Shown one piece after another: positions 903 to 59,064 of a stretch of DNA of 64,000 nt (the stretch's first letter is position 1; each line of letters opens with the position of its first letter). A program made the translations under genes and the position numbers. The notes below the pieces were generated by a model, which was given only the letters and a program-made list of their open reading frames with translations, did not search any database and was not told the origin of the DNA. The stretch is from a virus: IMG/VR virus record IMGVR_UViG_3300031885_000006, positions 12,890-76,889 of that record; one strand, 5' to 3'.

Positions 903-1484
903 TTACGTCAATGCCAGAATTTCTTCGAATTTGGAGAAGCTTTCAATGCCGAATCTTTGACGAATGAGTTCAAGTGCGGCGAATCCATACTGTTGGGCAC
1001 AAACACGAGAAACAAGTTTTTCTTGTCCGTACCGACTAACCATTTGCTCGGCTATTTCGGCCCATGTCATTTCATTCATAAAGTGATCATAGAGAATTTT
1101 TTTATTTCTTATATCTTTCTCTGTGTCATCTTTGTGATCTTTGAACATATCTTCAATAACAACGCCAACCACCAATTTATCAATTGTTGCTGGAGTTGTT
1201 GCTGGACAAAGCTCTGAATCTATGGAAACAACATTTCCTTGTCGTTTTTGACGCTTTTGTCGTCTCCAACGTTGAATTAATGATTTTTTAATACAAACAA
1301 CAGCATAGGTGGAAAACAAACCCACTTCAGGTTTATATTCTTTGTATGCATTGATAAGGGCCAAAACGCCTTCACTATATTCCTCAGAGTCTTCAGTATT
1401 AACGCCCTTTGGTACGTATTTAGACACGACCATGCGAACAAGGCCCAAGTGGTCCTCTGCTTTAATTATCGTTTCCATTTCCAT
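903..1484 (-). CDS. Sigma-70 family RNA polymerase sigma factor
   Basis: Region 2 motifs HLGLVRMVV..EGVLALINA..Y.P..G.FSTYA and a C-terminal HTH (MTWAEIAE). Confidence 0.8.
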   Translation of the reverse strand: MEMETIIKAEDHLGLVRMVVSKYVPKGVNTEDSEEYSEGVLALINAYKEYKPEVGLFSTYAVVCIKKSLIQRWRRQKRQKRQGNVVSIDSELCPATTPATIDKLVVGVVIEDMFKDHKDDTEKDIRNKKILYDHFMNEMTWAEIAEQMVSRYGQEKLVSRVCAQQYGFAALELIRQRFGIESFSKFEEILALT

Positions 1485-1562
1485 TTCAAATCACACCCAA
1501 TCGCTCAGGCGAAGTCACAATACAGCAACCCAAGCTAACAATATACTATATTTATAAACAAT

Positions 1563-1595
1563 AAAAAAGCCCGTTTTCTAAAAACGGGCTTTTTT
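1563..1595. terminator. Intrinsic terminator, bidirectional; ends the Ro60 operon
   Basis: aaaaaagcccgtttt-cta-aaaacgggctttttt inverted repeat flanked by A and T tracts. Confidence 0.85.
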
Positions 1596-1600
1596 AAAAA

Positions 1601-1658
1601 CCAAGACGAGTATCGATAAGAAGCCTTTTGGTAATGTATTCCTATCTAGCATTCTTGG
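1601..1658 (-). ncRNA. Minimal Y-RNA-like hairpin, copy 1
   Basis: Minus strand reads CCAAGA-AUG..GAUAGGAA-loop-UUCUUAUC..ACUCG-UCUUGG. Near-identical to 1671-1726 with compensatory changes in the closing stem; lies downstream of Ro60. Confidence 0.65.
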
Positions 1659-1670
1659 ATATTTTAAAAA

Positions 1671-1726
1671 CCGGACGAGTATCGATAAGAAGTTTTTTTT
1701 GCAATGTATTCCTATCTGCATTCCGG
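1671..1726 (-). ncRNA. Minimal Y-RNA-like hairpin, copy 2
   Basis: Minus strand reads CCGGA-AUG..GAUAGGAA-loop-UUCUUAUC..ACUCG-UCCGG. Confidence 0.65.
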
Positions 1727-1738
1727 CATATTTTTACA

Positions 1739-2191
1739 CTAATTACATTTTTGCTTTTTGGTAAATAATTCTGACAGATCATTCAAACTAGGTTCAAATA
1801 TACACAATTTATAACCAATCACCAACACCATTGGATGATCAAGCACCATCCTGCCGCATCCACCATTACAAACATCCATTCTAGCAGTATTACAATGTTT
1901 GGCTGATTTGTAAACAACCTCTTTGGGCAATTTAGCTTCATGCACCAAATTACAACGCAAAAACTTATAACAAAAAGCAGCCAATGTGTAATGCTTTTTT
2001 CCAATTAAAAATTTTCTTTTATCTTCCGGCATCACCGCTGACATAACCGCTCGGAATGCGGCACCATCTTTCAATTTAGGACATCTTAGACGAGAAACAC
2101 CTGCCACTGCGAGTAAAACACTAATTAATGCTCCTTCATAAAATTCATTGTCATAAAGACAAGCAGCTTCCTTCAACCTAGTTCTAATCAT
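1739..2191 (-). CDS. Hypothetical protein (RxxxxH, HEPN-like motif RCNLVH)
   Basis: 150-aa ORF overlapping the upstream stop (ATGA); contains LRCNLVHEA. Confidence 0.55.
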   Translation of the reverse strand: MIRTRLKEAACLYDNEFYEGALISVLLAVAGVSRLRCPKLKDGAAFRAVMSAVMPEDKRKFLIGKKHYTLAAFCYKFLRCNLVHEAKLPKEVVYKSAKHCNTARMDVCNGGCGRMVLDHPMVLVIGYKLCIFEPSLNDLSELFTKKQKCN

Positions 2192-3042
2192 TTTCCTCCA
2201 AAATTTTTATACCATGCTTGATGACACGCAAGTTTTGTTTTTAACTCAAAACCATTTAGTTGTTCCCATTTCCTTTCAAGGCCGGGAATGTCTAAAATCA
2301 TTATTTTTTGCAATATTGCAAACGCTCTTGCTCCAGTTATTTTGTAATCTGAAACTTTTCTAGTCTTTCGTCGTCTAGCTTTTGCCCGCATTTTCCCAGC
2401 AGGTGGAACTATCTCATCAAAAACAGATTGAATCCAATTTAATACATCAAAAGTTCCAGTAAAACTTACTTCTAAACGACCTTTATCAAATCTTATGCAA
2501 CCATCACCATCAAGATAACCTTTGATAAAAGCCAACTTATGGTTCACATCACTTAAATTCGGCGGCTGCAAGATAAGTGATTTTTTACGGACAATATTGA
2601 AATTCCTTTGCAACGCCTCTACAACTCGGGTTGCACTACAAATTTCAACAATAGCTGTATACTTATCTTCTCCTGTATGGAAATACTTGCCTTTCCTAAT
2701 TTTTACATTGCCTGTGTATTTGATATCGTCAGCGAATTTTTGAATGTGTTTAACATCATCAGATTTAAACGCCAAAAAAAGATAATAGCTGTTATCACGT
2801 ACTTTTCTGACCCAACCATCTGCTGCTAATACTCCAGCCCAATAACAATTCCCAACATCTGGTTCATCAAAATAATTTTCATTATGTTGATACTTTTTAA
2901 GACCTTTTTTCAATCCTAAAATATGAGCGTGATTTGTAATTGCACTTGGAGTCTTACCAAGTATTTCGGCTATTTCACTTCTATTTTTAGAAGGATATAG
3001 CTCCCTAAGTTTTTCCTCGTCTTCAAGATTCCACTTTTTCAT
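2188..3042 (-). CDS. Free-standing LAGLIDADG homing endonuclease
   Basis: Two motifs, YWAGVLAADG and FIKGYLDGDG, plus an N-terminal HTH. Confidence 0.85.
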   Translation of the reverse strand: MKKWNLEDEEKLRELYPSKNRSEIAEILGKTPSAITNHAHILGLKKGLKKYQHNENYFDEPDVGNCYWAGVLAADGWVRKVRDNSYYLFLAFKSDDVKHIQKFADDIKYTGNVKIRKGKYFHTGEDKYTAIVEICSATRVVEALQRNFNIVRKKSLILQPPNLSDVNHKLAFIKGYLDGDGCIRFDKGRLEVSFTGTFDVLNWIQSVFDEIVPPAGKMRAKARRRKTRKVSDYKITGARAFAILQKIMILDIPGLERKWEQLNGFELKTKLACHQAWYKNFGGK

Positions 3043-3096
3043 GTTATGCCTTATACAAGATAGATTTCTATCTTATATAGGCACCAACATGAAAAT

Positions 3097-4674
3097 TTAA
3101 ATTTCAATCTTTTCGATTACGTCTACCCAATGGTCTGCTGACGCACCATATTTGATAAAATCAGCAATGACATCAAATGATGCATCCGACCAGCCGCCAC
3201 ACTGCAATATTTCCTTGCTAGGAGCTACTTGGCTAGTTGTATTTGGGATCAAGTCCACGCAAACCAATTTCGACTTTTGATTGCGATTCTTGAATTTGCT
3301 CCATTCGTCAAGCATGGATGTGCCACGACCATAATATCCGCCACCATTTACCCAAGATTCGTTATCTGAGATAAAAATAACAGCCGAGCCTTTAGCCTGA
3401 CGACTATTTAATTCACGCAACGCACAACCACAATCTGTGCCACCACCATTGCGAGCAAATTTTTGAGCATTAGTCATAACGGAATCACGAGGATTCACAT
3501 TGACGGAATGCACTACTGTGTCGAACAACAATACTTCTGCTAATTTATTTTTTCGCAACATAGCTGCTGCCACCAAAGCTGCAACGTCCAAACAACGCAC
3601 GGACGAAGTTGCCCCAGCACGATAGCCAGTGATCGCACTTCTCATGGAACCGCTAGTATCTACGCAAATATAAATCTGACCGTCGATAGCTGGGGTGTTT
3701 TCCAACGCAGTTTCCATAGCATCTTGCAACGATTCACGCACCATTGCTGGCACATTTACGGCTGCATTATAAGCCATGAGCAACTGATATGGATAAGCAC
3801 GAGCCTTAACAATTTCCTCTTTGTTGGAAAGTTTATCCGCAACAGCCTTTACCAATTCTGGAGAATTGAATACGCCATATTTTTGGAAATTGTTCAAGTT
3901 CATACGGGTCATCTGCCAACCACCGTGACGTGCTTGGGATTCCCACATTTTACAAGCTTCTTCTTTGGTCAAAATGCTATCGAGCATTCGGAAGTCAACC
4001 TTTGGGATTTCTCCTTCATGGTTCTTCTTGAAGTTTTCATATTGCTGTACGATAGCTGGCAAGTGGCTAAACACTTCTGCTTTGCCGCTAACCAAATAAC
4101 CATACAACGCTCGTTTTTCTTCATTTTCTGGACGTGGACGAGCCATACGCAAAATGTCACGCATAGTTGGATCGTTACCGATACTTGCACGGAAAATGAA
4201 TTCCGAAGTATGAGATTCAAACCAAGTATTGATAGCACGTCGCACACTGCCAGAGCTTACGTTCAATTTCTTTCCAGCTTGACCGGATCGGCCAATTTGG
4301 ATGAAATTACGCAACATCTTGCCGTTATCAATAATTTTTGGAAACACTTGACGGAACAATTTGCTATCCAAAGTTGCAAGTACCGCAACGAGATATGCAG
4401 GCATATCTTTCATATATGCTTTGTTACGAGCATATACAGCTACTTTTGCAATAAACTCTGGATCGCTGTGCAATTTAGCCACAGCTTCCTTAGCAATTTT
4501 AAGATTAGACTCAGCATCTGCATAATAAGTGCCGTTGAAGCAATTAGTGCATGCAATTTGAGCCAACGCATGACGAGAAGTCATTTCGTAAGCTTTGCCG
4601 CCAGCCGCATTTACAGTGTTTGCAGCAGGAATTTCACTAGTTGGCGCACCGCCAAACAAAGATTTATTAGCCAT
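3097..4674 (-). CDS. rsr: Ro60/Rsr RNA-binding protein (TROVE + vWA domains)
   Basis: N-terminal NAAGGKAY, TROVE repeats, vWA MIDAS motif CVDTSGSM, GGGTD and ISDNESW. Confidence 0.92.
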   Translation of the reverse strand: MANKSLFGGAPTSEIPAANTVNAAGGKAYEMTSRHALAQIACTNCFNGTYYADAESNLKIAKEAVAKLHSDPEFIAKVAVYARNKAYMKDMPAYLVAVLATLDSKLFRQVFPKIIDNGKMLRNFIQIGRSGQAGKKLNVSSGSVRRAINTWFESHTSEFIFRASIGNDPTMRDILRMARPRPENEEKRALYGYLVSGKAEVFSHLPAIVQQYENFKKNHEGEIPKVDFRMLDSILTKEEACKMWESQARHGGWQMTRMNLNNFQKYGVFNSPELVKAVADKLSNKEEIVKARAYPYQLLMAYNAAVNVPAMVRESLQDAMETALENTPAIDGQIYICVDTSGSMRSAITGYRAGATSSVRCLDVAALVAAAMLRKNKLAEVLLFDTVVHSVNVNPRDSVMTNAQKFARNGGGTDCGCALRELNSRQAKGSAVIFISDNESWVNGGGYYGRGTSMLDEWSKFKNRNQKSKLVCVDLIPNTTSQVAPSKEILQCGGWSDASFDVIADFIKYGASADHWVDVIEKIEI

Positions 4675-4698
4675 TTTATCTGTTCCTTATGTAAGTTT

Positions 4699-4760
4699 AT
4701 TCCCGTGAGGGACGAGTTTTGAATAATCACTCTTGGGCAAAAGCAATTATCCGGTAAAAC
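4699..4760 (-). promoter_or_regulatory. Structured 5' leader of rsr carrying a permuted copy of the Y-like motif
   Basis: Minus strand has hairpin GGAUAAUUGC/GUGAUUAUUC, then ACUCGUCCC-UCAC-GGGAAU, just upstream of the SD AAGGA (4684-4688). Confidence 0.5.
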
Positions 4761-4790
4761 CATTATACGCCAAAAATATCATTTGTAAAG
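4761..4790 (-). promoter_or_regulatory. Sigma70-type promoter of rsr (TTTACA-N16-TATAAT)
   Basis: Both hexamers visible; 29/30 nt identical to 59376-59405. Confidence 0.8.
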
Positions 4791-4802
4791 TTGAAGAGAA
4801 AA

Positions 4803-5072
4803 TTATTCTGTAATTTCTTCAACACATACAGTTATATTGGAGGCACGATTGACGATTTCATCTCTGCGAGCGTCCATTGCCGAAACAATTTGAGTTTCTA
4901 CAGATTTCACCACAAAAGAACGATTGGTGGTGGCTTCGACACGAAAAGGAATCGCACCAATACAATTCAAAATCTCACCAACATACGGAACCCTATCATC
5001 TGAATAAACAAATTCAAGCCGACCATCAAGTTGGATTTCAATGTCAAATTTAAATTGATTCATAAGGGACAC
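4803..5072 (-). CDS. Hypothetical protein
   Basis: 89-aa ORF filling the gap between ligA and rsr. Confidence 0.55.
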   Translation of the reverse strand: MSLMNQFKFDIEIQLDGRLEFVYSDDRVPYVGEILNCIGAIPFRVEATTNRSFVVKSVETQIVSAMDARRDEIVNRASNITVCVEEITE

Positions 5073-5078
5073 ACATAA

Positions 5079-7226
5079 TTAAGAAAGGTTCAGGATTTTT
5101 TTCAACTCATCGACCGAAATCAACGAAATTCCTAGCTTTTTGGCTTTTTCCGCCTTTGAACCGGCATCGACGCCTTCGACCACGAAATTCGTCGTTTTTG
5201 ACACACTAGAACCGCATTTTCCGCCCTGTTCTTCGATCAAACCCTCATAAAACTTCTTCCCCTTATCAAATCCACCTGTCAGCACGAAATTCTGCCCGGT
5301 AAGTGGACCCGTTTTAGGCAACTCAGGTTCGATAAATTTTAGCAATTCTTTGATGCCCGGCTCATGGCTGGTCAGGTATTCATTGACCAGCATAGCTGTT
5401 TTAATGCCTACGCCTTCAACGGCTGCTAATTGTTCGTCGCTGGCAGCCATAATTTTATCTAAGCTACCAAAATGATCGACCAATGCTTTGCCCGCACTTT
5501 TTCCGGCGCTTTCAATTCCAAAAGCGGCAAATAGTCGCCACAACGGAACAACCTTTTTATTCTTTTGTGCTTTGACGATAGCTTTCTGCAAATCATCGTC
5601 TTCCATCTGATCGGGGCTATCGATCATATGAATTCCAGCTACAGCTAGCATGCCTTCTCGTTCTGAGAGGCCAGAATGGCGACATTGCTGAACAGTTAGT
5701 TTATAAAAATCAGCAAAATGTTTAATCCATCCACCAGCAACCAAATCAGCCACTGTGGATTCTCCCAATCCCAAAACACCAATTGTTTTAAGAAAGTGTA
5801 AAAGTCTGCTGATATTTTTAGCCGGGCAGTCGTCGTTAATGCACATCAACTCATACATATCGCCACCCGATGTTGGCGTATGTTTAACATGCGTTTTTTC
5901 GCCACAGGATGGACAACTGCGTGGGTAATTAATTTCTTCAACCTGAAGATAATCGACTTCTCCACCCGCAACACCGACAACTTTGGGGATAATTTTGCCA
6001 GCTTTTAGAACAATAATTTTCGTTCCAACTGCAATTTTATTTCTAAAAATGAAGCCAACATTATGCAAAGTTGCTCGACGAACTTGGGTGCCTGCCAAGG
6101 GGACCGCATCAAAAATAGCAACAGGTTTAATTGCCCCTGTACGGCCTGTGTTCCACTCAATAGAAGAAACTACAGGGTTGGCTCGTTCTTCAGCGAATTT
6201 CCAGGCAATCTTTCCTTTTGGAGTACCAGTTTTGGGATCTCCGCTACGTCCCAATTGTTCTTGATCTTCTAGATTATTGACGCCGATTACAACGCCATCG
6301 ACTTCATAATCCAGATTAGCAACATTCGCCTCCATTTCGGCTAAATCATAGAAATTGAATTCTTTAATTTGCACAAAGGGGATGCCCAATTCTTTATTGC
6401 AGAATTTGGCACGCTCAATTTCAGTTTTATAAGGCGGGCTATCAATTCCTTCAACGGAATAACCAATAAAACTAAGTCGTTGGTCTTTAACTTTAGCGGG
6501 CTCTTTAAACTGACGAATTCCACCTGCGGTGTGGTTGCGAGGATTGGCACGAAGTTGTTCGCCCAATGATGCCAATTCCTGTTGAACCTTATTGAAATCT
6601 GATAACTTGCAAATCAATTCACCACGAATTGAGCATGTGATCGGCAACTTCAATTCTTCAGGAATATCATGAACATATTTTACTTGTTCGGTAACATCTT
6701 CACCGTGAACGCCATCTTTTGGCCGTAGCCCGGCTTTAACCAATTTGCCTTTTTCGTAATACAAGCCTAGAGCAACGCCATCAAGTTTGTAACTTTGATA
6801 AAACGTATTTCTTGGATAGGTGACAACTTCGTTGTTGAAGGTACGTTCTTTTTGTTGAACGCCATCAATTTCTTTGGCAGCCAAATCAAAAACTTTATTT
6901 TTACCATCCAATTCAACGGTGCAATCGTTCAGCCACTTAAAAAGCTGCTCTTCTTGGACATCAAGATCTTCGTGACTTGCTTTAGCAATACTGGTGAGGG
7001 GCGGATGATGCTTCATCTTTTTGACGGCACTACTGGCCTTGGATGCCGTCACGGTATCGAACAATTTGGCATTTGGATTCAAAGCCTTCAATGCTCGACG
7101 CATCGAATCATATTCACCATCACTAACGATTTCACCCGTATCTGGATGAGTACAATCATCACCCACTTCATAAAGTGTGTCTAGGTGAGCGATAACACGT
7201 TCTAATAATTGAGCTTGAGTTTCCAT
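5079..7226 (-). CDS. ligA: NAD-dependent DNA ligase
   Basis: KLDG adenylation motif, RGE, DGVV, TGRTG, ATLHN, KAGKIIP, Zn finger CPSC..C..C, HhH and BRCT. Start moved to ATG 7226 (GGAG upstream). Confidence 0.95.
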   Translation of the reverse strand: METQAQLLERVIAHLDTLYEVGDDCTHPDTGEIVSDGEYDSMRRALKALNPNAKLFDTVTASKASSAVKKMKHHPPLTSIAKASHEDLDVQEEQLFKWLNDCTVELDGKNKVFDLAAKEIDGVQQKERTFNNEVVTYPRNTFYQSYKLDGVALGLYYEKGKLVKAGLRPKDGVHGEDVTEQVKYVHDIPEELKLPITCSIRGELICKLSDFNKVQQELASLGEQLRANPRNHTAGGIRQFKEPAKVKDQRLSFIGYSVEGIDSPPYKTEIERAKFCNKELGIPFVQIKEFNFYDLAEMEANVANLDYEVDGVVIGVNNLEDQEQLGRSGDPKTGTPKGKIAWKFAEERANPVVSSIEWNTGRTGAIKPVAIFDAVPLAGTQVRRATLHNVGFIFRNKIAVGTKIIVLKAGKIIPKVVGVAGGEVDYLQVEEINYPRSCPSCGEKTHVKHTPTSGGDMYELMCINDDCPAKNISRLLHFLKTIGVLGLGESTVADLVAGGWIKHFADFYKLTVQQCRHSGLSEREGMLAVAGIHMIDSPDQMEDDDLQKAIVKAQKNKKVVPLWRLFAAFGIESAGKSAGKALVDHFGSLDKIMAASDEQLAAVEGVGIKTAMLVNEYLTSHEPGIKELLKFIEPELPKTGPLTGQNFVLTGGFDKGKKFYEGLIEEQGGKCGSSVSKTTNFVVEGVDAGSKAEKAKKLGISLISVDELKKILNLS

Positions 7227-9005: not shown

Positions 9006-9323
9006 TTAAGTGGAAGCAAATTCATCGATGACTTTTTGAATCGCAGCTTCACTTTGCAGCCCGATTAGTGTTTTGACCACAGTGCCATCTTTAAAAAACA
9101 ACATTGTGGGCAAAGATGCTATTTGATATTGCGTTGCAATGCCGACACTATCATCAGTATTGAGTTTGAGCAATTTGAATTTATCGCCATTTGATGCAAC
9201 CAATCTTTCTAGCAATGGTGTCAATGCTCGACAAGGCCCGCACCAGGGAGCAAAAAAATCGACTAAAACTAGGCCGGTGGCCTGCATTACTTCTTGATCC
9301 CAATCTTCTTCATTTATATTCAT
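9006..9323 (-). CDS. trxA: Thioredoxin
   Basis: DFFAPWCGPC; 105 aa. Confidence 0.95.
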   Translation of the reverse strand: MNINEEDWDQEVMQATGLVLVDFFAPWCGPCRALTPLLERLVASNGDKFKLLKLNTDDSVGIATQYQIASLPTMLFFKDGTVVKTLIGLQSEAAIQKVIDEFAST

Positions 9324-14729: not shown

Positions 14730-15689
14730 TCAAAAAAGTCCTTTTTCAAATTGTTTTTTTACCTCCGAATCGCCATATAAAAAGAACCTTTCAATCAAAA
14801 ACAATTTAGCCTCAAACAACTCTTTATTGTCTTTTACATCAGAATGCGATAATCCGCAAATAACAAAAAAATCTTTAATGCTTTTGATTGCGGATAAATC
14901 AACTGGCATCTTAGATTTTTTTGAAATTTCTATAAATTGTATAAAGAATTTAACCCAAGATCTGACTGCTCGGGCATCTAGCGTACCTTCCGGCATGCGG
15001 AATTCAACAGTTTTTTTGAGATTTAAATAAACTGGTGGGTCAAAAGGATGAAATGTAGATTCGTAATACAAAGCTGCGGCGACATTCACCGTATTTAAAG
15101 TGACTTTCTTTTGCCGATTTTCATGCGGACTATATTGATTGGGCTTTAATTTATTCCACACCTCTTCCGCTTCATATTTTTTACTTTTAGCTATTTTTCT
15201 AGATTTGCTAATCAACTTGCAAAAATAATTATCCACTCGATGAGGAGGCATTAAATTGCACAGCATGCCCTCAATCTTCATCCATCGAGACAATAAAACG
15301 CCCAATTCTGCTGGGGTGAAATCGCTCACGCAACAATGAATGTGAAAACCACAATTAACATTAGGCAAACAAATCGCAGATAAGCTTTGAGCCACTTGGC
15401 TTATATGATTTAAATCATTATCGCCTGCCGCAACAAAAGAAGCGACTTCCCAGCCATGATCGGCATATTTAGTCTTGCCATCAGCATGTTCTACTTTGCC
15501 AATAGGACCGCATGTTCTATCAAATTTAACATGCCAGTAATTATTGTTAGTTGTTTGTGCCCAAGACGAATTAACAACTATCTCACGACTAGAGCATTTT
15601 TTAATTGTATCTTCTATTTGTTGTTGTGTTTTTTCATTACCAACTTCAAATTCTACGCCGAATTTACGAGCTTCTCTAACATTAGCCAT
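14730..15689 (-). CDS. Putative amidoligase (COOH-NH2 ligase family)
   Basis: FGVEFE, WEVAS, CGFHIH and TVEFR motifs. Confidence 0.8.
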   Translation of the reverse strand: MANVREARKFGVEFEVGNEKTQQQIEDTIKKCSSREIVVNSSWAQTTNNNYWHVKFDRTCGPIGKVEHADGKTKYADHGWEVASFVAAGDNDLNHISQVAQSLSAICLPNVNCGFHIHCCVSDFTPAELGVLLSRWMKIEGMLCNLMPPHRVDNYFCKLISKSRKIAKSKKYEAEEVWNKLKPNQYSPHENRQKKVTLNTVNVAAALYYESTFHPFDPPVYLNLKKTVEFRMPEGTLDARAVRSWVKFFIQFIEISKKSKMPVDLSAIKSIKDFFVICGLSHSDVKDNKELFEAKLFLIERFFLYGDSEVKKQFEKGLF

Positions 15690-58478: not shown

Positions 58479-59064
58479 TGGAGCCGAGGGGAGTCGATAT
58501 TCCCCACACCTATTACTAGGTGAATGGACTATATCATTGCCATAGCTTTTCAGCCTTAGGCATCGGGCGCTTATCTGGTTATTAAGAGGGCTAAACCTCT
58601 CCAGTAGTCTCTACACCTTCCTGCGATGTATCGCAAGCTTGGCTCGGTATTGCCCCAGAGGGGTTTCACCGAATTCACCCAATATTTTTTTCTAAACCTT
58701 TCGATTTAGATGGGCTCGACTTCCGAACCCCTTTCCAGAATAACTTGTAAAAAGACCTCTACATGCTTGTCTTATTGTTTTTGCTTTCGCATCTCGCCAT
58801 TCGTGTCCACATAAAGCTAAGGACAATTCACAGCCAGCAGAATCTTTGTCTCGTTTAGGTATCTCTGCGTGAACCTAAACCAGCCGGATTTTTTTTCAGG
58901 TTTTCAAGACGCTACCAGCATCGCTTCTATCAACCTGTCGCCACCTTAAGCAGCGAGAGCTAGAGTGTTGCCTGTTAAGGCTTGAACGATTTTTAAAGCG
59001 GCCCTTCGTTCAACCGCTGCATGCCATCTATCTACTGCATTACCTGTCGATGCCTGACGGCCCC
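58479..59064 (-). ncRNA. ssrA: tmRNA, intron-interrupted; tag peptide (A)GNTLALAA
   Basis: Acceptor stem GGGGCCG/CGGCUCC-A with G3:U; T-arm AGGGG-UUCGACU-CCCCU after intron removal; pk1-like knot; tag frame 58972-58946 ends LAA-UAA; 357 nt spliced; CCA not fully encoded. Confidence 0.93.
58498..58726 (-). mobile_element. ORF-less group I intron (229 nt) in the tmRNA T-loop
   Basis: P1 GGGUUCG/CGAGCCC with U:G; P/Q AAUUCGGUGAAAC..AAUACCGAGC; P7 GAGACUA/UAGUCC; P3 GGGUG/CGCCC; P9 CACCUA-GUAA-UAGGUG. Confidence 0.9.

What the first reader, a model, noticed from the sequence alone, without database searches (positions are those of the whole stretch)
4684..4760. Circularly permuted copy of the Y-like motif in the rsr leader: candidate autoregulatory operator
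Seen: the leader reads ACUCGUCCC-UCAC-GGGAAU about 10 nt before the SD. These are the same two strands as the downstream repeats (ACUCGUC and GAAU) in swapped order, closed by a small loop. Inference: Ro60 could bind its own mRNA and repress translation, with the mini-Y RNAs titrating it. I know of no description of such a feedback circuit.
Basis: partly seen in the sequence, partly recalled or inferred. Interest (0 to 1): 0.8.

Follow-up and report, generated by a model that had tools for sequence, protein, structure and literature searches.

The report
Y-RNA look-alike hairpin before phage Ro60
The messenger RNA of this huge phage's Ro60 (Rsr) gene carries, about 10 bases before its ribosome-binding site, a small conserved hairpin that copies in swapped strand order the helix by which Ro60 is thought to grip its Y RNAs, so spare Ro60 probably throttles its own synthesis, though binding has not been tested.

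Summary
On the minus strand, 4717-4699 reads ACUCGU-CCC-UCAC-GGG-AAU, 10 nt before the SD (4688-4684) of rsr (3097-4674). It is the permuted form of the closing stem of the two mini-Y RNAs at the operon's end (1727-1670, 1658-1601) and of a tRNA-Y chimera elsewhere in the genome.

It is not chance. The pattern YUNGU-stem-loop-stem-AAU occurs in 13 of 63 unique rsr leaders of an independent phage set. About 1.2 to 1.4 are expected, and upstream regions of other genes give 8 of 496. More than 20 different stems keep pairing. In several phages the 3' arm is the SD, or AAUG holds the start codon.

Bacterial rsr leaders carry the same two strands in natural order directly before the SD (16 of 77, against 0.85 expected). 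The strands match the closing stem of Rfam-recognised YrlA RNAs in the same loci.

My best reading is an autogenous translational operator that mimics the Ro60 site and is titrated by Y RNAs. Binding and repression are untested. I found no paper describing it. This scan has noted the same leader mimic before on other genomes. A second conserved leader hairpin (invariant UGCCCAAG) remains unexplained.

The parts
4762..4789 (-). sigma-70-type promoter of the rsr operon (TTTACA 4789-4784, 16-nt spacer, TATAAT 4767-4762); predicted +1 near A4755
   Evidence: It is the best promoter match in 1400-5200, with 11 of 12 positions. CTTTACA...GCGTATAAT is conserved in L005, L006 and L021.
4721..4752 (-). 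Leader hairpin 1: 14-bp stem with GCCC tetraloop; invariant octamer UGCCCAAG (4739-4732); function unknown
   Evidence: TGCCCAAG is invariant in six related leaders, and the stems differ between them. L001 and L014 have a UUUGUCCAAG variant in a hairpin loop.
4699..4717 (-). The finding: permuted Ro-site module ACUCGU-[CCC]-UCAC-[GGG]-AAU (helix U4712-C4709 with G4704-A4701)
   Evidence: The sequence is and the fold. L005 conserves it with a different loop, and L006 and L021 with different stems. The pattern is enriched in rsr leaders.
4684..4688 (-). Shine-Dalgarno AAGGA of rsr, 10 nt 3' of the module
   Evidence: The sequence is. UAAGGAACAGA is conserved in L005 and L021.
3097..4674 (-). rsr: Ro60 homologue (TROVE + Ro60 vWA), 525 aa
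   Evidence: Pfam gives TROVE at 4e-11 and vWA_Ro60 at 8e-9. More than 7000 full-length homologues were found, several annotated as 60 kDa SS-A/Ro.
2188..3042 (-). LAGLIDADG-type homing endonuclease-like ORF inserted between rsr and the Y RNAs
   Evidence: Pfam LAGLIDADG_3 at 3e-5.
1739..2191 (-). 150-aa ORF of unknown function, overlapping the stop of the previous ORF
   Evidence: Listed among the ORFs. It was not analysed further.
1670..1727 (-). mini-Y RNA 1: GCCGG-AAUGC...upper hairpin with AAUACAU...ACUCGU-CCGGU, followed by a U run
   Evidence: It belongs to a family with covarying closing stems found across many rsr loci.
1601..1658 (-). mini-Y RNA 2: CCAAG-AAUGC...ACUCGU-CUUGG, followed by a U run
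1562..1596 (-). intrinsic terminator ending the operon
   Evidence: 16-bp stem followed by a T run.

Best explanation
The hairpin is a cis-acting mimic of the Ro60 (Rsr) binding site of Y RNAs, placed in the rsr 5' leader next to the ribosome-binding site. In Y RNAs the site is a helix made by the 5' and 3' ends, with AAUG(C) on the 3' side of one strand and CU(U/C)GU on the 5' side of the other. In the leader the same helix and junction strands are present, but the far end of the helix is closed by a loop. The strand order is therefore swapped while the local geometry is unchanged.

Proposed mechanism (inferred): Ro60 made in excess over its Y RNAs binds this lower-affinity site 25 to 43 nt upstream of the AUG. 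This hinders 30S binding or, alternatively, marks the mRNA for decay. The mini-Y RNAs come from the same transcript, and they and the tRNA-Y chimera would compete for Ro60 and relieve repression. This is classical autogenous control by target mimicry, and it would set the Ro60:Y RNA ratio.

Shown here: the motif, its conservation, its covariation, its position and its likeness to the Y/YrlA closing stem. Inferred: binding, repression and titration.
For: 1. Same-genome identity. ACUCGUCC and GGAAU occur in the leader, in both mini-Ys and in the tRNA-Y chimera at G000:5896-6015. The chimera reads ACUCGU-CC-UUCAUU-GG-AAUGUAG.
2. The closed, permuted module is a natural form. It sits in the anticodon-arm position of tRNA-like chimeras in many rsr loci.
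3. Discovery set: 10 of 21 leaders match.
4. Independent phage set: 13 of 63 unique leaders match. Whole-locus background predicts 1.2, other-gene upstream regions give 8 of 496, and dinucleotide shuffles give a mean of 1.37 and a maximum of 4.
5. With a relaxed pattern, 31 of 83 unique leaders match and more than 20 distinct stems occur.
6. Covariation in one clade: 92% of cells are paired, 4 of 5 pairs show compensatory change, and 0 of 500 shuffles reach the score.
7. Position. The module ends 1 to 39 nt before the AUG. The 3' arm is the SD in L016, L017, L018, L154 and L185. In L003, L183 and L202 the AAUG holds the start codon and SD-like purines lie in the 5' arm and loop.
8. Bacterial rsr leaders carry [stem]-AAUG(C)-N4-18-CUUGU-[stem'] ending 0 to 5 nt before the SD in 16 of 77 cases, against 0.85 expected, and the stems covary.
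9. Rfam-recognised YrlA RNAs in those loci have closing stems that read [stem]-GAAUGC...CUUGUC-[stem'].
10. GNCGAAN0-1G is the published Rsr-binding signature (PMC4201824), and Ro60 mainly contacts the 5' strand (10.1101/312249).
11. Co-variation between ligand and leader: the two genomes whose Ys and chimeras mostly use UCGU (this one and L192) also have UCGU in the leader.
Against: There are no binding, toeprint, reporter or RNA-seq data, and no RNA run holds this phage. The window's hairpin is only 4 bp and thermodynamically unremarkable. It has GGGAAUAA, so the G of the published CGAA(N)G signature is an A. It also lacks the upper stem of Y RNAs, so its affinity may be low. It lies 10 nt upstream of the SD rather than on it. 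More than half of rsr leaders show no match to the pattern. The pattern was first defined on part of the data, although it was then tested on independent sets. Related phages are not fully independent samples. A clade-trained covariance model did not find the window's copy.
Confidence: 0.55

Rival explanations
1. Ro60 does bind the leader module, but not to repress translation. It might load co-transcriptionally in cis, protect the mRNA 5' end, or recruit PNPase for decay-based feedback. Alternatively the roughly 65-nt leader (hairpin 1 plus module) could be cleaved off as an extra small Y-like RNA.
For: Y RNAs lie upstream of rsr and are processed from the same precursor in D. radiodurans and M. 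smegmatis (PMC4201824). Yrl1 and Yrl2 lie upstream of Ro60 in Thermus phage phiLo (PMC12135203). In L147 and L148 a full mini-Y sits 35 to 39 nt before the ATG. Conserved hairpin 1 could act as an effector module.
Against: In many homologues the module overlaps the SD or start codon. That is expected of a translational operator, not of an RNA to be released. The module lacks the UACAU upper hairpin that all mini-Ys share.
Confidence: 0.2
2. The shared CUUGU/AAUG junction is a processing or recognition signal for another factor, such as an RNase that matures Y RNAs out of the polycistronic transcript. The leader copy would then be a cleavage or stability site independent of Ro60.
For: The mini-Ys must be cut out of the rsr operon transcript. 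The 3' strand CUUGU is conserved here, although the literature stresses only the 5' strand for Ro60 contacts.
Against: The 5'-strand signature overlaps the experimentally mapped Rsr/Ro60 site. The motif is specific to rsr leaders and is not found at other genes.
Confidence: 0.12
3. It is a plain RBS-proximal hairpin that tunes translation or mRNA stability without any protein. Its likeness to the Y stem would be a leftover of duplication or gene conversion from the neighbouring Y genes.
For: The hairpin is short. In some homologues it simply sequesters the SD.
Against: The flanking YUNGU and AAU are kept while stems and loops change across rsr proteins of 34 to 73% identity. Bacteria keep the same strands in the other order at the same place. 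A leftover would not persist in this way.
Confidence: 0.1
4. The resemblance is due to chance.
For: The window's copy alone is short, and 12 of 200 shuffles fold as well.
Against: The enrichment over three different controls and the covariation.
Confidence: 0.03

Closest known systems
Autogenous translational operators that mimic the protein's main RNA ligand (E. coli thrS operator mimicking the tRNA-Thr anticodon arm; ribosomal-protein leaders for L1, S8, S15, L20; phage MS2 coat protein and T4 RegA operators). This comparison rests on my own knowledge.
   Same: A short structured copy of the protein's high-affinity RNA site lies in its own 5' leader at or next to the RBS. The free ligand RNA would compete with it. 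The copy is conserved with covariation.
   Different: No Ro60/Rsr case is described in the papers I could search. Here the mimic is a circular permutation of the ligand's helix. Binding and repression are untested.
Ro60/Rsr-binding stem of bacterial and phage Y RNAs (YrlA, Rfam RF02553; YrlB; D. radiodurans Yrn1; motif GNCGAAN0-1G; Chen et al. 2014, PMC4201824)
   Same: It has the same two junction strands, (G)AAUG and CU(U/C)GU, flanking a short helix. It lies on the same strand as rsr and within its operon.
   Different: It is not a Y RNA. The strand order is swapped, the helix is closed by a 4-nt loop, and there is no upper hairpin and no tRNA-like domain. It has no Rfam hit and it is part of an mRNA.
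Yrl1 and Yrl2 upstream of Ro60 in Thermus phage phiLo (PMC12135203)
   Same: They are Y-like elements with a CGAA motif in the non-coding region upstream of a phage Ro60 gene, and they were shown to bind the phage Ro60.
   Different: They are described as separate Y-like RNAs with a 5'-3' stem, bulge and stem. They are not described as an RBS-proximal operator, and autoregulation is not discussed (0 occurrences).
tRNA-Y chimeras of the same phages (G000:5896-6015; L001:5870-5998)
   Same: They carry the same closed, permuted module: CU(C/U)GU-hairpin-AAUG.
   Different: There the module replaces the anticodon loop of a tRNA-like RNA and is followed by the UACAU hairpin. It is a stable RNA, not a leader.

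Membership tests
Y RNA / YrlA (Rfam RF02553) | The 5' and 3' ends pair into a long stem that holds the Ro60 site (GNCGAAN0-1G on the 5' strand) | tested here: not met
   In the leader the strands are in swapped order and the helix is closed by UCAC. The sequence is GGGAAUA rather than CGAA(N)G. The natural-order alternative (CCGGA at 4754-4750 with UCC) gives only 3 bp.
Y RNA / YrlA (Rfam RF02553) | An effector module (tRNA-like D and T arms, or at least the upper hairpin) | tested here: not met
   There is no tRNA-like part, and ARAGORN finds no tRNA anywhere in the window. No YrlA or other credible Rfam match falls on the leader at E up to 10.
Y RNA / YrlA (Rfam RF02553) | Encoded within about 4 kb of rsr on the same strand | tested here: met
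   The motif lies 25 nt upstream of the rsr ATG on the same strand.
Autogenous translational operator by ligand mimicry | The operator resembles the protein's primary RNA ligand in sequence and structure | tested here: met
   The leader shares ACUCGUCC and GGAAU with the mini-Ys and the chimera of the same genome. The same strands close Rfam YrlA stems.
Autogenous translational operator by ligand mimicry | Located in the protein's own mRNA at or next to the RBS | tested here: met
   It lies 10 nt before the SD here. In homologues it overlaps the SD or the AUG.
Autogenous translational operator by ligand mimicry | Conserved across homologues with compensatory changes | tested here: met
Autogenous translational operator by ligand mimicry | The protein binds the operator, and the ligand RNA competes | not testable with these tools
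   This needs EMSA or filter binding with purified Rsr.
Autogenous translational operator by ligand mimicry | The protein represses its own translation in vivo | not testable with these tools
   This needs a reporter fusion or toeprinting. No RNA run holds this phage.

The most novel reading that the evidence does not exclude
A minimal Ro60-binding module (a short helix plus the AAUG/CUUGU junction) is a widespread autoregulatory operator of rsr. It would have arisen or been kept in either strand order: permuted in many large phages, natural-order in Acidobacteriota and other bacteria. In this phage it would form a one-operon homeostat in which the co-transcribed mini-Y RNAs and a tRNA-Y chimera titrate Ro60 off its own leader. 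If so, it would be the first regulatory logic known for Ro60 levels, and it would define the smallest RNA that Ro60 recognises.
Probability: 0.5. Interest if true: 0.75.

Novelty: new member of a known kind. Interest (0 to 1): 0.66.

Why it matters
Ro60 is a conserved RNA-quality-control protein and a major human autoantigen. How cells or phages set its level relative to Y RNAs is not known. A conserved RBS-proximal mimic of its binding site suggests a simple feedback loop that can be tested directly. It also defines a roughly 20-nt minimal candidate Ro60 ligand, useful for structural and binding studies. Finally, it shows that the Ro site works as a portable module in three contexts: mini-Y RNAs, tRNA chimeras and the mRNA leader.

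Tried and rejected
- BLASTN of the operon against GenBank phages found no match.
The closest protein homologues (P0004-P0017, 60 to 67% identity) could therefore not be placed on DNA, and their leaders remain unseen.
- A leader pattern scan of viral contigs (TTGCCCAAG...AGGARCAG) returned only chance hits, none next to rsr. Those loci served as background.
- Rfam has no family on the leader.
- MAFFT misaligned the heterogeneous hairpins, so the formal pair count was restricted to one clade.
- A covariance model built from that clade (R1) did not transfer. It found neither the window's copy nor most of the others.
- Expression: no RNA holder is listed. Laying DNA contigs of four sediment runs gave nothing informative on the leader.
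- Regulon search: other matches to the pattern in the 76.9-kb record have weak AU-rich stems and do not sit at start codons.
- Natural-order reading of the window's leader (5' CCGGA pairing with UCC): only 3 bp, and it is not kept in L005 or L021, so I rejected it as the main fold.
- A complement of UGCCCAAG at 15558-15565 is at chance level.
- Literature: four searches found no description of Ro60/Rsr autoregulation. The 2020 Annual Review (PMC10870794) is not held.

Full report
**What is there.** The window is part of a 76.9-kb fragment of a large phage, estimated about 15% complete. On the minus strand a strong sigma-70-type promoter (TTTACA-16-TATAAT, 4789-4762) precedes an operon. The operon consists of an 80-nt leader, rsr (3097-4674; TROVE plus Ro60 vWA domains; more than 7000 full-length homologues), a LAGLIDADG-like ORF (2188-3042), a 150-aa ORF (1739-2191), two roughly 58-nt hairpin RNAs (1727-1670 and 1658-1601) and an intrinsic terminator (1596-1562).

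The leader has two hairpins. Hairpin 1 (4752-4721) has a GCCC tetraloop. The element under review (4717-4699) reads ACUCGU-CCC-UCAC-GGG-AAU and ends 10 nt before the SD AAGGA (4688-4684). The ATG is at 4674.

**The repeats are truncated Y RNAs.** Both repeats fold as [closing stem]-AAUGC-...upper hairpin ending in UACAU...-CUCGU-[closing stem'] followed by a U run. The same architecture recurs downstream or upstream of rsr in many related phage loci. The closing stems differ freely while AAUGC and CUUGU stay fixed.

In bacterial rsr loci, RNAs that Rfam recognises as YrlA (up to 70.6 bits) have exactly this closing stem, [stem]-GAAUGC...CUUGUC-[stem']. It contains the published Rsr-binding signature GNCGAAN0-1G (PMC4201824). 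Anchoring on one strand alone recovers the other as the consensus.

**The permuted, loop-closed form is a real module.** At G000:5896-6015 (minus strand) there is a tRNA-like RNA (Rfam tRNA, 50 bits) with normal acceptor, D and T arms. Its anticodon region reads ACUCGU-CC-UUCAUU-GG-AAUGUAG, followed by the UACAU hairpin.

The same arrangement occurs in L001 (CCUUGU-UGGG-CCUUAAAA-CCCA-AAUGUAG) and in many other rsr loci. Closing the open end of the Ro helix with a loop and entering it from the other side is thus a recurrent natural design in these phages. The leader hairpin is its minimal version.

**Is the leader copy more than chance?** On its own the 4-bp hairpin is unremarkable. The comparative evidence decides the matter.

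- *Closest relatives.* L005 (Rsr 73% identical) has CUUGU-CCC(A)-GAAA-(U)GGG-AAUGC at the same place, with a different loop. L006 and L021 (67% and 64%) keep CUUGU or UUUGU and AAU but have quite different stems, UUCAA/UUGAA and UUAAAUGC/GCAUUUAA.
- *Discovery set.* I fixed the pattern [CU]U[CUG]GU-stem(at least 3 bp)-loop(3 to 16 nt)-stem'-AAU. In the 120 nt before rsr it hit 10 of 21 leaders.
- *Independent set.* In 77 viral loci fetched afterwards, 13 of 63 unique leaders hit. The whole-locus background predicts 1.2. Upstream regions of other ORFs in the same loci give 8 of 496. Dinucleotide shuffles of the leaders give a mean of 1.37 and a maximum of 4 in 200.
- *Relaxed pattern.* 31 of 83 unique leaders hit, against about 5 expected, with more than 20 different stems.
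- *Formal pair count in one clade.* 92% of cells are paired, 4 of 5 pairs show compensatory changes, and no shuffle of 500 reaches the covariation score.

**Position argues for translational control.** The module ends 1 to 39 nt before the AUG.

- In L016, L017, L018, L154 and L185 its 3' arm is the SD.
- In L003, L183 and L202 the AAUG contains the start codon, and SD-like purines lie in the 5' arm and loop.
- In 80 bacterial rsr loci, mostly Acidobacteriota, the permuted pattern is absent (0 of 77). However, 16 of 77 leaders carry the natural-order minimal module [stem]-AAUG(C)-N4-18-CUUGU-[stem'], ending 0 to 5 nt before the SD. Chance predicts 0.85. The stems covary: GG/CC, CGG/CCG, UCGG/CCGA, GCGG/CCGC, CAG/CUG and UCAG/CUGA.

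The two strand orders give the same local structure: a helix with AAUG 3' of one strand and CUUGU 5' of the other.

**Co-variation of ligand and leader.** This phage uses the unusual CUCGU, where most others have CUUGU, in both mini-Ys, in the chimera and in the leader. L192, the other genome whose Ys and chimeras mostly use UCGU, also has UCGU in its leader. The numbers are small, so this is only suggestive.

**Mechanism.** Free Ro60 would bind the leader and hinder initiation. Y RNAs, which are made from the same transcript, would compete with the leader for Ro60. The leader copy lacks the upper stem and has A where the Y RNAs have the G of AAUG. That would fit a weaker site which fills only when Ro60 exceeds its Y RNAs.

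Shown here are the motif, its conservation, its covariation, its placement and its identity with the YrlA closing stem. Binding, repression and titration are inferred. The rivals are a Ro60-bound leader with another role or a released small RNA, a shared processing signal, and a protein-free hairpin. The report sections list them with the experiments that would separate them.

**Comparison with what is known.** Autogenous control by ligand mimicry is classical (thrS and ribosomal-protein operons; my own knowledge). For Ro60/Rsr I found no description in four full-text searches. Neither Chen et al. 2014 nor the 2025 phiLo Ro60 paper describes one, although the latter places two Y-like RNAs upstream of a phage Ro60 gene. 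The leader element is not a Y RNA: it fails the end-pairing, effector-module and Rfam criteria.

Notes of this scan on other genomes (actinomycetes, cyanobacteria, other phages) report the same leader mimic. I reached the phage and bacterial results before reading them. They are unchecked AI notes, not independent evidence.

**Limits.** No RNA data exist for this phage. A clade-trained covariance model did not generalise. More than half of rsr leaders show no match to the pattern. Hairpin 1, with its invariant UGCCCAAG, remains unexplained.

Noticed in passing
window 4721-4752 (-): Leader hairpin 1 is a conserved stem of varying sequence with a G(C/U)CC tetraloop. The octamer UGCCCAAG (4739-4732) is invariant in six related rsr leaders. 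L001 and L014 show a UUUGUCCAAG variant inside a covarying hairpin loop. Its function is unknown.
   Followed up: partly
L222 (G000:C1) 5896-6015 (-), outside the window; also L001:5870-5998 and many loci: These are tRNA-like RNAs with normal acceptor, D and T arms. In the anticodon-arm position they carry the loop-closed, permuted Ro-site module plus the UACAU hairpin, which amounts to a circular permutation of the YrlA layout.
   Followed up: partly
L223-L302 (bacterial rsr loci), e.g. L226, L258, L299: Acidobacteriota and other bacterial rsr leaders carry a natural-order minimal Ro-site hairpin, [stem]-AAUG(C)-N-CUUGU-[stem'], directly before the SD. Tandem arrays of YrlA genes lie downstream.
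   Followed up: yes
L147:2901-2965, L148:2908-2965: In these phages a complete mini-Y RNA in natural order sits in the rsr leader, 35 to 39 nt before the ATG.
   Followed up: no
window 58506-59057 (-): An Rfam tmRNA match (58733-59057, 62 bits) abuts a group I intron match (58506-58736, 74 bits) on the same strand. It may be an intron-associated phage tmRNA gene.
   Followed up: no
window 2188-3042 (-): A LAGLIDADG-type homing-endonuclease-like ORF is inserted between rsr and its Y RNAs. L001 and L005 have their Y RNAs about 0.3 to 0.4 kb after rsr, without this insert.
   Followed up: no
window 4692-4805: In sediment metagenome contigs this promoter-leader bin has raised summed depth, and several contigs diverge upstream at about 4790-4792. 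This suggests that different phages in the samples share the promoter-leader segment.
   Followed up: no
L222 1-12889: A dense tRNA cluster (11 ARAGORN calls) includes tRNA-like genes with long insertions, for example 5520-5612 and 9178-9273.
   Followed up: no
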